From IMG/VR virus record IMGVR_UViG_2563367002_000001: a stretch of DNA of 38,579 nt; one strand, given 5' to 3'. Position numbers and translations under genes: made by a program. The DNA comes from a virus (taxonomy: Duplodnaviria > Heunggongvirae > Uroviricota > Caudoviricetes). Each line of letters opens with the position of its first letter. The first letter of the stretch is position 1. Under the pieces are notes generated by a model that saw only the letters and a list, made by a program, of their open reading frames with translations, made no database searches and was not told where the DNA came from. Below, piece by piece: positions 35,938 to 38,579 of the stretch.

Positions 35938-37998
35938 ATGGCAGTACAGATTTCAGGCGTGCTGAAAGACGGTGCAGGAAAACCGATACAGAACTGCACC
36001 ATTCAGCTCAAAGCAAAACGTAACAGCACCACGGTTGTGGTGAACACGGTGGCCTCAGAAAATCCGGATGAAGCCGGACGTTACAGCATGGATGTCGAGT
36101 ATGGCCAGTACAGCGTTATCCTGCTGGTTGAAGGTTTTCCGCCTTCACATGCCGGGGCCATCACCGTGTATGAGGATTCTAAGCCGGGGACATTGAATGA
36201 TTTTCTGGGCGCTGCAACAGAAGATGATGTTCGTCCGGAGGCACTGTATCGTTTTGAAAAGATGGTGGAAGAGGTGGCACGCAACGCTGAAGCCGCCTCT
36301 CAGAGCGCAGCGGCAGCAAAGAAATCAGAAACAGCAGCGGCATCGTCCAGGAATGCGGCGAAAACATCAGAGACGAATGCAGGTAACAGCGCGAAAGCGG
36401 CAGCTTCTTCAAAAACAGCCGCACAAAACGCAGCAACAGCGGCAGAACGTTCAGAGACAAATGCCCGTGCGTCAGAAGAAGCCTCCGCAGACAGTGAAGA
36501 GGCTTCCCGCCGTAATGCAGAGTCAGCCGCTGAAAATGCCGGAGTCGCCACCACAAAAGCGCGGGAGGCCGCAGCAGACGCAACAAAGGCCGGGCAGAAA
36601 AAGGATGAGGCTCTGTCGGCAGCGACACGGGCTGAAAAGGCGGCAGACCGCGCAGAAGTCGCAGCGGAAGTGACTGCAGAGCCCTATGCGAATATAGTGC
36701 CGCCGCTGCCTGATGTGTGGATACCGTTTAACGATTCACTGGATATGATTGCGGGTTTTTCTCCGGGCTATAAAAAAATAGCTATTGGTGACGATGTGGT
36801 TCAGGTCGCCAGTGATAAACAGGTTAATTTCAGTCGCGCATCAACGGCAACATATATCAACAAATCTGGCGAACTGAAAACGGCGGAAATTAATGAGCCG
36901 CGATTTGAGTGTGATGGCCTGCTTATTGAGGGACAAAGAACGAACTACATGCTCAATTCGGAAAGTCCAGCCAGCTGGGGGAAGTCATCAAACATGGATG
37001 TGCCCGAAACCGGGACAGATAGTTTTGGTTTTACTTATGGAAAGTTTGTCTGCAACGATTCTCTGGTTGGGCAAACTTCGGCTATTAATATGGCATCAAT
37101 TGCTGCAACAAAGTCAGTTGATGTCTCAGGCGATAACAAGTACGTGACAACCTCATGCCGTTTTAAAACAGAACGACAGGTAAGGTTACGTATACGGTTT
37201 GATAAGTATGATGGTAGTGCAACAACTTTTCTTGGCGATGCGTACATTGATACGCAAACGCTTGAAATTAATATGACAGGTGGGGCTGCCGGCAGAATTA
37301 CGGCACGAGTCAGGAAGGATAAGACCACAGGCTGGATTTTTGCAGAGGCAACGATTCAGGCAATTGATGGTGAGTTAAAAATAGGCTCTCAGATACAGTA
37401 TTCTCCTGAGCGGGGTGGGGCAACAGTATCTGGTGACTATATTTATCTTGCCACCCCACAAGTAGAGAATGGGCCGTGTGTATCATCATTTATTATTTCA
37501 GGAGGCAGCGCAACGACAAGAGCCAGTGATTTGGTTAGTATCCCCACCAGAAATAATCTTTATAAGTTACCATTTACTTTTTTACTTGAGATTCATAAAA
37601 ACTGGGATATTGCACCAAACGCCGCACCCCGCGTGTGGGATATAGCAGCAGCCAATACCGGGCAATCAGCAATTGCAGCAATCAACAGAGGTAGTGGTAA
37701 GTTATATATGAGTCTGTCAAACCCTTCAGGCTTGTATGTTAATAGCGCAGCGACAGATGTATTTGCAGAGAAAACCACATTTGGATGTATTGCAAAAGCT
37801 GATGGTCACTTTCATGTGGTGACAAATGGTAAAGCGGTTAATGAAGTTTATTGTGAATATAATGGTGTGACCGCTGATAAAAATATCCGATTTGGAGGGC
37901 AGACGAATACTGGAGAACGACATCTGTTTGGCCATATTCGCAATTTCCGCATATGGCATAAAGAATTAAATGACAGGCAATTAAAAGAGGTCGTATGA
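35938..37998 (+). CDS. stf: Side tail fibre protein (Stf-like N-terminus with Ala-rich shaft and an unrelated C-terminal domain), about 686 aa
   Basis: N-terminal ~90 aa match lambda Stf (MAVQISGVLKDGAGKPIQNCTIQLKAKRNSTTVVVNTV...), followed by an Ala/Ser-rich repeat region. The C-terminal ~420 aa are not lambda-like and look AT-richer. ATG at 35938 with GGAG 5 nt upstream. Confidence 0.85.
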   Translation: MAVQISGVLKDGAGKPIQNCTIQLKAKRNSTTVVVNTVASENPDEAGRYSMDVEYGQYSVILLVEGFPPSHAGAITVYEDSKPGTLNDFLGAATEDDVRPEALYRFEKMVEEVARNAEAASQSAAAAKKSETAAASSRNAAKTSETNAGNSAKAAASSKTAAQNAATAAERSETNARASEEASADSEEASRRNAESAAENAGVATTKAREAAADATKAGQKKDEALSAATRAEKAADRAEVAAEVTAEPYANIVPPLPDVWIPFNDSLDMIAGFSPGYKKIAIGDDVVQVASDKQVNFSRASTATYINKSGELKTAEINEPRFECDGLLIEGQRTNYMLNSESPASWGKSSNMDVPETGTDSFGFTYGKFVCNDSLVGQTSAINMASIAATKSVDVSGDNKYVTTSCRFKTERQVRLRIRFDKYDGSATTFLGDAYIDTQTLEINMTGGAAGRITARVRKDKTTGWIFAEATIQAIDGELKIGSQIQYSPERGGATVSGDYIYLATPQVENGPCVSSFIISGGSATTRASDLVSIPTRNNLYKLPFTFLLEIHKNWDIAPNAAPRVWDIAAANTGQSAIAAINRGSGKLYMSLSNPSGLYVNSAATDVFAEKTTFGCIAKADGHFHVVTNGKAVNEVYCEYNGVTADKNIRFGGQTNTGERHLFGHIRNFRIWHKELNDRQLKEVV

Positions 37999-38273
37999 AA
38001 GATTTAACTTTGAAGTTTCATGACAAACTGCAGTTTAAGGCCTTCCTGTCATCTCTTGACTGGGAGGAGGATGAAGACCTCCAGAATAAACTGTTAGTCG
38101 ATGAAATTGGTTTCACCTACACAGAAACAGGGGTAACAGAAGAGGGAGAACCTGTCTGTGTCCGGAATGACGGTTATTTTGTCAACATTCGCATTCTTGA
38201 TGACTTGTTTGATGTTTCTGTATTCTCTGATTATGTCGTGGAGCTGGAAACACCGCTTCGGGAATGGAGCTGA
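37995..38273 (+). CDS. Small acidic hypothetical protein, 92 aa, translationally coupled to stf
   Basis: ATG overlaps the stf stop (ATGA). Highly acidic (DWEEDEDLQ...). Possibly a tail fibre chaperone or accessory protein, but no recognisable similarity. Confidence 0.5.
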   Translation: MKDLTLKFHDKLQFKAFLSSLDWEEDEDLQNKLLVDEIGFTYTETGVTEEGEPVCVRNDGYFVNIRILDDLFDVSVFSDYVVELETPLREWS

Positions 38274-38285
38274 AAGGAGGAAATA

Positions 38286-38579
38286 ATGGATATAAGCCCC
38301 TTACTTCATGCGCTTTGTGCTGTGGCTGCGCAGATACTGGTTGGTCTTTTTACCGGAAACTGGGCTTACGGAGCGATAGCCGGTTGTACGTTCTTCATTG
38401 CGCGTGAACATACCCAGGCAGAATATCGCTGGATTGAAATGTTCGGGCATGGCAAGCGAATGAATATGCCGTGGTGGGGCGGTTTTGATCCGCGAGCTTG
38501 GGATGTGGCAAGCCTGATGGATTTTGCTGTGCCGGTGGTGGCGTGTCTGCTGGTCTGGCTGTTGGTTAATCGTGGGTGA
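38286..38579 (+). CDS. Hypothetical integral membrane protein, 5' partial (runs off the window end)
   Basis: RBS AGGAGG upstream of the ATG. Three hydrophobic segments (LHALCAVAAQILVGLF, AYGAIAGCTFFIA, FAVPVVACLLVWLLV). No stop within the window. Confidence 0.5.
   Translation: MDISPLLHALCAVAAQILVGLFTGNWAYGAIAGCTFFIAREHTQAEYRWIEMFGHGKRMNMPWWGGFDPRAWDVASLMDFAVPVVACLLVWLLVNRG

What the first reader, a model, noticed from the sequence alone, without database searches (positions are those of the whole stretch)
37995..38579. Unknown acidic protein plus membrane protein immediately after the tail fibre gene
A 92-aa strongly acidic protein is translationally coupled to stf, followed after a strong RBS by a multi-pass membrane protein that runs off the window. 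Tail fibre chaperones are usually larger and not this acidic. A small cytoplasmic protein paired with an inner-membrane protein at the distal end of the tail operon is a typical layout for superinfection-exclusion or abortive-infection cargo, but there is no recognisable similarity to tell which.
Basis: inference. Interest (0 to 1): 0.5.

Follow-up and report, generated by a model that had tools for sequence, protein, structure and literature searches.

The report
Tail-fibre accessory gene plus separate membrane gene
The two small genes after the side tail fibre gene of this phage 21-type prophage are real, very common and uncharacterised, but they are not a two-part defence system: the acidic one travels with a particular tail-fibre type even in strictly lytic phages, and the membrane one is a separately mobile gene.

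Summary
Both ORFs are real. The region is 100% identical to Escherichia phage 21 and ev017, where both genes are annotated as hypothetical.

Its TGA stop is the last three bases, so it is a complete 97-aa protein.

orfA (92 aa, pI 4.1) belongs to phrog_1361.
- In all nine phages inspected it abuts or overlaps the stop of a lateral/side tail-fibre gene ending in a ConA/LamG ("galectin-like") domain.
- These include lambdoid, T1-like, T5-like, Dhillonvirus, Nonagvirus and rV5-like phages, most of them virulent.
- In six of the nine a second fibre gene follows orfA.
- I read orfA as a fibre accessory protein, either an assembly factor or a tip partner. I infer this from context alone. It has no similarity to Tfa.

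orfB (97 aa, three predicted helices) belongs to phrog_1443.
- It occurs without orfA after P22-type tailspikes, gpJ and P2-type fibre modules.
- It also occurs in non-phage chromosomal contexts in Aeromonas and sphingomonads.
- It has an almost invariant loop, probably cytoplasmic, and matches no known family.

orfA occurs without orfB and orfB without orfA. Here they adjoin because phage 21 lacks the second fibre gene and hairpin that separate them in phage 2G7b. A defence or exclusion role for orfB remains possible but has no direct support.

The parts
35898..35917 (+). G+C-rich hairpin plus T-run between J and stf. It is annotated as a terminator in phage 21. stf, orfA and orfB all lie downstream of it.
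   Evidence: L001 5999-6018 corresponds to window 35898-35917; phage 21 annotation.
35932..37998 (+). Side (lateral) tail fibre gene stf. It has a phage_tail_N attachment domain, a GTA_spike_fiber-like middle and a C-terminal ConA/Laminin_G_3 ('galectin-like') domain. The start annotated in phage 21 corresponds to 35938.
   Evidence: phrog_1419 E=0; PF08400 9.8e-69; PF13385 5.1e-5 over residues 562-683. No Peptidase_S74 intramolecular chaperone was found.
37995..38273 (+). orfA: a 92-aa acidic soluble protein of phrog_1361, translationally coupled to stf by an ATGA overlap. Proposed tail-fibre accessory protein (assembly factor or tip partner).
   Evidence: (8.1e-42).
38274..38280 (+). Shine-Dalgarno sequence AAGGAGG, 5 nt before the orfB ATG.
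   Evidence: annotated as an RBS in phage 21.
38286..38579 (+). orfB: a complete 97-aa protein with three predicted helices, probably in the inner membrane, of phrog_1443. The stop codon is the last three bases of the window. The loop at residues 40-73 is nearly invariant and predicted to be cytoplasmic.
   Evidence: (2.4e-58).

Best explanation
These are two functionally separable genes that lie side by side at the 3' end of the tail-fibre module.

(1) orfA is the dedicated small accessory protein of a widespread lateral tail-fibre cassette. It is made in step with the fibre by termination-reinitiation. It most likely acts on the fibre's C-terminal ConA/LamG ('galectin-like') domain. It could be a trans-acting assembly factor, standing in for the self-cleaving C-terminal chaperone that other lateral fibres carry. 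Alternatively it could be a small acidic subunit that stays on the fibre tip. In most relatives a second, exchangeable fibre gene follows orfA. Phage 21 lacks that gene.

(2) orfB is an independently mobile small protein with three predicted helices, probably in the inner membrane. In phages it sits as the last gene after whatever receptor-binding gene the phage has. Its highly conserved loop is predicted to face the cytoplasm, so it probably acts on a conserved host membrane component. My best guess is that it interferes with a step at the inner membrane such as entry of superinfecting DNA. That step is inferred, not shown.

What is shown: gene reality, gene order, distribution, coupling, predicted folds, and the absence of matches to known families. 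What is inferred: binding of orfA to the fibre, and every functional statement about orfB.
For: orfA
- It is a phrog_1361 member.
- tblastn finds it in 145 phage records. The stf C-terminal 164 aa are found in 205 records. In the records where both coordinates were listed, the two are contiguous.
- Divergent members after the same fibre type in AKFV33 and JeffSchatz were confirmed as phrog_1361 (3e-29 and 6.5e-27).
- In all nine phages inspected, the orfA start abuts or overlaps the fibre stop by 0-4 nt.
- Six of the nine have a second fibre gene next. These share the N-terminus M.T.T.IP.DIT.LK, the LtfB/phiEco32 gp15 type described in PMC4728585.
- DT57C, whose LtfA ends in a Peptidase_S74 chaperone, is listed with adjacent gp108 (LtfA) and gp107 (LtfB) and no gene between them.
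- A distant homologue (phrog_18574; hhalign probability 84%, E 7e-6) follows phrog_5939/1419-type fibres in Comamonas and Pantoea prophages.
- dN/dS is 0.15-0.35.

orfB
- It is found without orfA after the P22-type tailspike plus terminator in Gally.
- It follows the tail-fibre-assembly gene and precedes the sheath gene in phiHAP-1.
- It follows gpJ in Comamonas and Acidovorax prophages, and tailspikes in Leclercia and Desulfovibrio.
- It also sits in non-phage contexts: pirin-orfB in Aeromonas, and after ligA or pnp in alphaproteobacteria.
- In 2G7b a 345-aa fibre gene and a hairpin separate orfA from orfB.
- The family has 439 clusters at 50% identity, all stand-alone proteins of roughly 60-150 aa among the 150 listed.
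- R40, E41 and W72 are invariant.
- K+R averages 5.3 in the loop against 0.4 on the other side of the membrane.
Against: - orfA does not match fibre alleles strictly. The Lambda_2G7a group has orfA 93.5% identical but a fibre C-terminus only 43.5% identical to phage 21.
- The order fibre, orfA-like, orfB recurs with 4-nt overlaps in Comamonas and Pantoea prophages. Some functional link between orfA and orfB is therefore not excluded.
- For orfB, chromosomal orthologues in stable non-phage contexts argue for a cellular rather than an anti-phage role.
- orfB is about 60% identical across gamma- and betaproteobacteria.
- No promoter of its own was found in phage 21.
- There is no PADLOC match.
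Confidence: 0.55

Rival explanations
1. One reading: orfA (cytoplasmic) and orfB (membrane) act together as a two-component superinfection-exclusion or abortive-infection module carried as cargo at the end of the tail operon.
For: - The two genes are adjacent and co-oriented with a strong RBS.
- The contiguous pair is found in 1127 of 5426 complete E. coli genomes.
- An orfA-like gene and orfB are also adjacent and overlapping in Comamonas and Pantoea prophages.
- The next genes in phage 21 are cargo (sitABCD).
Against: - In the virulent phages inspected, orfA directly follows the fibre gene and orfB does not follow it.
- orfB occurs without orfA in P22-like phages, P2-like phages, gpJ-only contexts and chromosomal contexts.
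- 2G7b has a fibre gene and a hairpin between them.
- Neither protein matches PADLOC.
Confidence: 0.07
2. orfA is a structural adaptor that joins a second, distal fibre protein to the proximal fibre. In phage 21, which has no second fibre gene, it would be a leftover.
For: - In six of nine cassettes orfA lies between the proximal fibre and a second fibre with a conserved docking-type N-terminus.
- The IrisVonRoten homologue is annotated 'tail fiber protein'.
- The BASEL paper models Gp24 attached to proximal Gp22 but leaves the 92-aa Gp23 unexplained.
Against: - The same LtfB-type N-terminus works in DT57C, where no gene is listed between LtfA and LtfB. There it is proposed to dock on the middle of LtfA.
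- orfA is intact in lambdoids without a second fibre (phage 21, PhiR41_1 at 63% identity). dS is saturated for that pair, so selection there could not be measured.
- The rV5-like JeffSchatz has orfA but its next gene lacks the docking N-terminus.
Confidence: 0.2
3. orfB is a cellular membrane-homeostasis or envelope-modifying protein that phages picked up as a host-benefit (lysogenic conversion) gene, with no anti-phage role.
For: - Chromosomal orthologues keep the same non-phage neighbourhood across several Aeromonas species (pirin-orfB) and in sphingomonads (ligA or pnp then orfB).
- Polar residues R40, E41, H8 and Q44-A45-E46 are invariant or nearly so, which I take to suggest a catalytic or ligand-binding site.
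- In Gally it occupies the gap between the tailspike gene and int, which from my own knowledge is where P22 carries gtrABC. In phiHAP-1 it sits between the fibre-assembly and sheath genes, which I recall as the Z/fun position of P2.
- In phage 21 it sits next to the sitABCD cargo genes.
Against: - In many phages it overlaps the preceding late gene by 4 nt, so it is made late in lytic growth.
- Partial homologues exist in 234-237 kb Aeromonas phages.
- No enzyme family matches.
Confidence: 0.25
4. orfB is a lysis-related membrane protein (a holin, antiholin or lysis-timing factor).
For: - It is a small membrane protein with three predicted helices.
- In Comamonas, Acidovorax and Pantoea prophages it lies directly upstream of a holin, endolysin and Rz/Rz1 cassette.
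- One family member has a weak Phage_holin_8 match (E 0.0036).
Against: - Each of those prophages has its own separate holin candidate between orfB and the endolysin, and the holin and endolysin types vary while orfB stays the same.
- In this window the lysis cassette lies about 24 kb away; its R21-type endolysin is at 13859-14356.
- orfB has no charged C-terminal tail.
- Chromosomal copies lie in non-phage neighbourhoods.
Confidence: 0.1
5. orfA is an acidic DNA-mimic or anti-defence protein unrelated to the fibre.
For: It is small and very acidic, with pI 4.1 and net charge -14. From my own knowledge this resembles Ocr or ArdA-type mimics.
Against: - Gene order with one fibre type and translational coupling are conserved across six phage lineages.
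- It sits in the late tail operon, so it would be made late, which I judge the wrong time for anti-restriction.
- The fold search gives no DNA-mimic match.
Confidence: 0.03

Closest known systems
Tail fibre assembly proteins and chaperones encoded just after fibre genes (lambda Tfa, P2 G, Mu U, T4 gp38; Pfam Caudo_TAP PF02413)
   Same: orfA has the same genomic logic. It is a small gene immediately downstream of, and translationally coupled to, the fibre gene, and it travels with one type of fibre C-terminal domain.
   Different: There is no sequence similarity (Pfam, NCBIfam and PDB all negative). orfA is about half the size of Tfa. Its alpha/beta fold has no informative match. It is not strictly matched to fibre alleles. 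The partner is a ConA/LamG lectin-type domain rather than, to my knowledge, the trimeric tips served by the known chaperones.
C-terminal intramolecular chaperone (Peptidase_S74) of T5 pb1, DT57C LtfA/LtfB and K1F endosialidase
   Same: It serves the distal end of lateral fibres in the same phage groups. Fibres with S74 and fibres with ConA plus orfA look like alternative solutions: DT57C against AKFV33 and IrisVonRoten.
   Different: S74 is part of the fibre polypeptide and cleaves itself off. orfA is a separate gene with no similarity to it.
Branched two-protein lateral fibres (DT57C LtfA/LtfB; phiEco32 gp14/gp15; IrisVonRoten Gp22/Gp24)
   Same: The relatives' cassettes have the same proximal fibre and a distal fibre with the conserved LtfB-type N-terminus.
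   Different: The published descriptions read here do not mention the small gene between the two fibre genes. Phage 21 has only the proximal fibre plus orfA.
Phage-encoded membrane exclusion or conversion genes placed next to receptor-binding genes (cor of phi80/N15, llp of T5, gtrABC of P22, Z/fun of P2, gp15 of HK97, T4 Imm). Listed from my own knowledge, not tested here.
   Same: orfB is a small membrane protein in the same kind of genomic slot, directly after the tailspike or fibre module and before int, the sheath gene or cargo genes.
   Different: There is no sequence match to any library, including PADLOC. orfB is far more conserved across host phyla than I would expect of an exclusion protein. 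It has chromosomal non-phage orthologues. No phenotype is known.

Membership tests
phrog_1361 (uncharacterised phage protein family) | Full-length match to the family profile | tested here: met
   orfA residues 1-91 match profile positions 1-91 of 92, E 8.1e-42. AKFV33 orf136 and JeffSchatz bas55_0027 also match.
phrog_1443 (uncharacterised phage protein family) | Full-length match to the family profile | tested here: met
   orfB residues 1-96 match profile positions 1-96 of 97, E 2.4e-58.
Tfa / Caudo_TAP tail fibre assembly proteins | Caudo_TAP (PF02413) or DUF4376 domain | tested here: not met
   orfA has no Pfam or NCBIfam hit. Its distant relatives in Comamonas and Pantoea also lack DUF4376.
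Tfa / Caudo_TAP tail fibre assembly proteins | Gene immediately downstream of, and co-varying with, the fibre's distal domain | tested here: inconclusive
   The position criterion is met in 9 of 9 cassettes. Co-variation is only moderate (Spearman 0.59) and is broken in the Lambda_2G7a group.
Tfa / Caudo_TAP tail fibre assembly proteins | Binds the fibre C-terminus and is needed for its folding | not testable with these tools
   No multimer prediction or experiment was available.
Superinfection-exclusion membrane proteins | Membrane-located small protein | tested here: met
   orfB has three predicted helices at pLDDT 93.9 and hydrophobic segments at 4-39 and 74-96.
Superinfection-exclusion membrane proteins | Expressed from the prophage (own promoter) | tested here: inconclusive
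   No promoter-like site lies upstream of orfB in phage 21. In Gally a terminator and then a chance-level promoter-like site precede it. In other phages it overlaps the preceding late gene.
Superinfection-exclusion membrane proteins | Blocks infection by other phages | not testable with these tools
   This needs expression in a naive host and a phage challenge.
Known anti-phage defence systems (PADLOC-DB) | Match to any defence-system protein model | tested here: not met
   Neither orfA nor orfB matches any family at E up to 1.
Holins | Small TMD protein encoded next to the endolysin, with a charged C-terminal tail | tested here: not met
   The R21-type endolysin of this window is at 13859-14356. 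The orfB C-tail averages 0.4 K+R. In beta-proteobacterial prophages another holin candidate lies between orfB and the endolysin.

The most novel reading that the evidence does not exclude
Two overlooked families could each define something new.

(a) phrog_1361 could be the obligatory trans-acting partner of all lectin-tipped (ConA/LamG) lateral tail fibres of enterobacterial sipho- and myoviruses. It would be a chaperone or an acidic cap of the sugar-binding tip, with a fold unlike any known fibre chaperone.

(b) phrog_1443 could be a new, deeply conserved inner-membrane factor. Phages of three tail morphologies in alpha-, beta-, gamma- and deltaproteobacteria carry it directly after their receptor-binding genes. 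Its invariant cytoplasmic loop would target a universal host membrane machine, for example to block entry of incoming DNA.
Probability: 0.3. Interest if true: 0.6.

Novelty: new variant of a known kind. Interest (0 to 1): 0.38.

Why it matters
Lateral tail fibres decide which O-antigen-bearing strains a phage can reach, and they are being swapped and engineered for therapy. The literature read here does not describe this small gene, including a study that modelled its two neighbouring fibre proteins in IrisVonRoten. If every ConA/LamG-tipped fibre needs it, leaving it out could explain failed fibre transplants.

A match to the orfA-orfB stretch is found in about a third of complete E. coli genomes, including the type strain and BL21(DE3); many of these hold only the orfB part. 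orfB is conserved across proteobacterial classes and has no assigned function. Learning what its invariant loop does would annotate thousands of genes and might reveal a new point where phages act on the inner membrane.

The finding is not a new defence system on present evidence.

Tried and rejected
- Family searches of both proteins against Pfam, NCBIfam and PADLOC, and sequence searches against the PDB, found nothing significant. Pfam on 52 diverse orfB relatives also found nothing: only weak PhoR N-terminal and Phage_holin_8 noise.
- I looked for a fusion linking orfA to a known chaperone domain. The 171-188 aa orfA-like proteins of Comamonas and Pantoea do not carry DUF4376, so there is no such link. 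The DUF4376 hits belong to other loci.
- hhalign of the shallow orfA alignment against single sequences was insignificant. Only the comparison of two alignments gave 84% probability.
- My first crude gene caller failed on high-GC loci. I replaced it with same-strand neighbour extraction.
- Promoter scans were at chance level.
- The literature was no help on function. The phage 21 genome note, the DT57C papers and both BASEL papers do not discuss either gene. The genome-wide CRISPRi-ART screens named in the text read covered T4, T5, SUSP1 and PTXU04; I did not check these genomes for orfA.
- The strong match to window 11973-13115 near orfB in Silvania and Leclercia turned out to be an OmpC-family porin, which I judged coincidental.
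Full report
**What is in the sequence**

- Window 35900-38579 is 100% identical to Escherichia phage 21 (OL657228.1, 19196-21875) and to phage ev017.
- The side tail fibre gene stf (35932/35938..37998) is followed by a 92-aa ORF at 37995..38273, here called orfA. Its ATG overlaps the stf stop codon (GTATGA).
- Twelve bases after the orfA stop, behind AAGGAGG, comes a 97-aa ORF at 38286..38579, here called orfB.
- orfA is strongly acidic: 22 D+E against 8 K+R, pI 4.1.
It does not. Its TGA stop is the last three bases of the window, and the protein equals the complete CPT_21_24 of phage 21.
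- In phage 21 and ev017 the next genes are the convergent sitDCBA transporter genes.
- Both ORFs are real genes. Each has hundreds of homologues, and dN/dS is 0.14-0.35 wherever dS is not saturated.

**No known family**

- Neither protein matches Pfam, NCBIfam, PADLOC or any PDB sequence.
- Both fall in PHROG families of unknown function: phrog_1361 for orfA (8e-42) and phrog_1443 for orfB (2e-58).
- AlphaFold gives confident models. orfA is a small alpha/beta domain (pLDDT 89). orfB has three helices at 4-23, 26-52 and 74-96 (pLDDT 94).
- Fold searches return nothing informative.

**orfA belongs to the tail-fibre cassette**

- tblastn finds orfA in 145 phage records. These include strictly virulent groups:
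  - T1-like: tonn, JK16.
  - T5-like: IrisVonRoten, L6jm.
  - Dhillonvirus: KarlBarth.
  - Nonagvirus: JenP1.
- The last 164 residues of stf form a ConA/Laminin_G_3 domain. The BASEL authors call the same domain 'galectin-like' in IrisVonRoten Gp22. These residues occur in 205 phage records, and wherever both hits were listed the two are contiguous.
- More divergent fibres of this type in AKFV33 and in the rV5-like myovirus JeffSchatz are also followed at once by a small ORF. Both small ORFs are phrog_1361 members.
- In all nine cassettes inspected, orfA starts within 0-4 nt of the fibre stop.
- DT57C is a T5-like phage whose LtfA ends in a self-cleaving Peptidase_S74 chaperone. No gene is listed between its LtfA (gp108) and LtfB (gp107). 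orfA therefore tracks the lectin-type C-terminus, not lateral fibres in general.
- In six of the nine cassettes a second fibre gene follows orfA. All six share the N-terminus M.T.T.IP.DIT.LK. This is the LtfB/phiEco32 gp15-type docking end described by Golomidova et al. (PMC4728585).
- Phage 21 and PhiR41_1 lack this second fibre.
- A distant orfA relative follows phrog_5939/1419-type fibres in Comamonas and Pantoea prophages. It belongs to phrog_18574, and hhalign gives 84% probability, E 7e-6.
- Neither BASEL paper, in the passages read, discusses the 92-aa gene, although the 2025 paper models its two neighbours in IrisVonRoten.

**What orfA probably does**

- The invariant coupling to one fibre C-terminal domain, in lytic and temperate phages alike, points to a fibre function.
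- One possibility is a trans-acting assembly factor, the counterpart of the built-in S74 chaperone. The other is a small acidic subunit that stays on the lectin tip.
- I cannot separate these two without co-folding or virion proteomics.
- A pure 'adaptor for the second fibre' role is less likely. DT57C uses the same docking N-terminus with no gene listed between LtfA and LtfB, and orfA is retained in phages with no second fibre.
- Allele matching is loose. The Lambda_2G7a group has orfA 93.5% identical but a fibre C-terminus only 43.5% identical to phage 21. Overall co-variation is moderate.

**orfB is a separate, mobile membrane gene**

- Its relatives number 577 clusters at 90% identity and 439 at 50% identity. 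All of the 150 listed are stand-alone proteins of roughly 60-150 aa.
- They occur in gamma-, beta-, alpha- and deltaproteobacteria.
- In phages it sits directly after whatever receptor-binding module is present:
  - after a P22-type tailspike and its terminator, before int, in Gally;
  - overlapping the fibre-assembly gene, before the sheath gene, in the myovirus phiHAP-1;
  - after gpJ in Comamonas and Acidovorax prophages;
  - after tailspikes in Leclercia and Desulfovibrio, and after a LamG-domain protein in Chelativorans.
- It also lies in non-phage neighbourhoods: pirin-orfB in several Aeromonas species, and after ligA or pnp in alphaproteobacterial genomes.
- In the lambdoid 2G7b the order is stf, orfA, a 345-aa second fibre, a hairpin, then orfB. 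The tight orfA-orfB junction of phage 21 therefore corresponds to the absence of the second fibre and the hairpin.
- In Comamonas, Acidovorax and Pantoea prophages orfB lies just before a lysis cassette. Each cassette has its own holin candidate, and the holin and endolysin types differ between loci while orfB stays constant.
- The loop at residues 40-73 is nearly invariant (AREHTQAEYRWI..FG.GKR.NMPWWGGFD.R.W). Across distant members R40, E41 and W72 are invariant, and H8, Q44-A45-E46 and P83 nearly so.
- Positive charges place this loop in the cytoplasm: mean K+R is 5.3 there against 0.4 on the opposite side.
- A match to the orfA-orfB stretch is present in 1903 of 5426 complete E. coli genomes, including ATCC 11775 and BL21(DE3). 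Of these, 1127 have the contiguous orfA-orfB arrangement. In many others only the orfB part matches, preceded by a 'tail fiber domain-containing protein'.

**What orfB probably does**

- This is not deducible from the data here.
- Its position is that of known exclusion and conversion genes, so a role at the inner membrane against incoming phage DNA is my leading guess, at roughly one in four.
- An equally weighted rival is a cellular membrane function co-opted by phages. The chromosomal orthologues, the very high conservation across host classes and the invariant polar residues favour that view.
- A lysis-related role is a weaker rival.
- In several phages orfB overlaps the preceding late gene, so it is made late in lytic growth. 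No promoter of its own was detected in phage 21.

**Verdict**

- The interpretation as a cytoplasmic-plus-membrane cargo pair is not supported for orfA and is untested for orfB.
- The orfA-like/orfB adjacency does recur in distant prophages. That is most simply explained by orfA being the last fibre gene and orfB the gene that sits after the fibre module. A functional link is not fully excluded.
- Both genes are very common and already deposited as hypothetical proteins. The value lies in the context rule for orfA and in the unexplained conservation of orfB.

Noticed in passing
window 38577-38579 and beyond (phage 21 21967-25416): The window ends exactly on the orfB stop codon. In phage 21 and ev017 the next genes are the convergent sitDCBA Mn/Fe ABC transporter cargo genes, then attP and int.
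   Followed up: partly
window 11973-13115 (-): A 380-aa OmpC/NmpC-family porin gene lies on the minus strand between Q and the lysis cassette. It is a cargo gene present in ev017 but absent from phage 21, so the window matches ev017 rather than phage 21 in its right arm.
   Followed up: partly
window 35898-35917: A strong hairpin plus T-run lies between J and stf, annotated as a terminator in phage 21. stf, orfA and orfB therefore depend on read-through late transcription.
   Followed up: no
L007 (phage 4A7) 3126-5542: A three-ORF mobile element annotated only as 'Mobile element protein', which I read as IS66-type, is inserted at the 3' end of stf in phage 4A7. It separates a truncated fibre gene from intact orfA-orfB. 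Phages 1W and 3W show the same stf break point and a separate downstream orfA/orfB place; D2 has orfB at the equivalent position.
   Followed up: no
L087 (phage 2G7b) 3292-4375; L088, L089, L004, L003, L012: The second fibre genes that follow orfA share a conserved N-terminus (M.T.T.IP.DIT.LK) across lambdoid, Nonagvirus, Dhillonvirus, T1-like and T5-like phages, while the rest of the protein diverges. In 2G7b a GC hairpin plus T-run lies between this gene and orfB.
   Followed up: partly
L020, L029, L033, L036, L040, L056 (about 6300-7700 in each): In Comamonas, Acidovorax and Pantoea prophages orfB is followed by a lysis cassette. The holin type varies and so does the endolysin (a SAR T4-type lysozyme, a short endolysin I judged M15 peptidase-like from its sequence alone, and a phrog_3108-type protein). 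Rz/Rz1 are embedded as usual.
   Followed up: partly
phage records MG065692.1, MG065666.1, MG065653.1, OR848352.1, OR847733.1: Records named 'Campylobacter phage C13/A12a/C14' and 'Listeria phage LM 4-14-1/4-11-1' carry fibre cassettes that match those of E. coli T5-like or rV5-like phages (up to 100% protein identity for A12a). They are probably mislabelled or contaminant assemblies.
   Followed up: no
L001 6524-6537 (window about 36423-36436, minus strand): The phage 21 annotators mark a CII-binding consensus (TTGYN6TTGY) inside stf on the opposite strand. Its significance is unknown.
   Followed up: no
PMC11990801, Fig 12 legend versus section 20 text: The BASEL 2025 paper names the IrisVonRoten proximal fibre Gp22 in the legend and Gp23 in the text. 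The real gp23 (bas32_0023) is the 92-aa orfA homologue, which was not modelled.
   Followed up: yes
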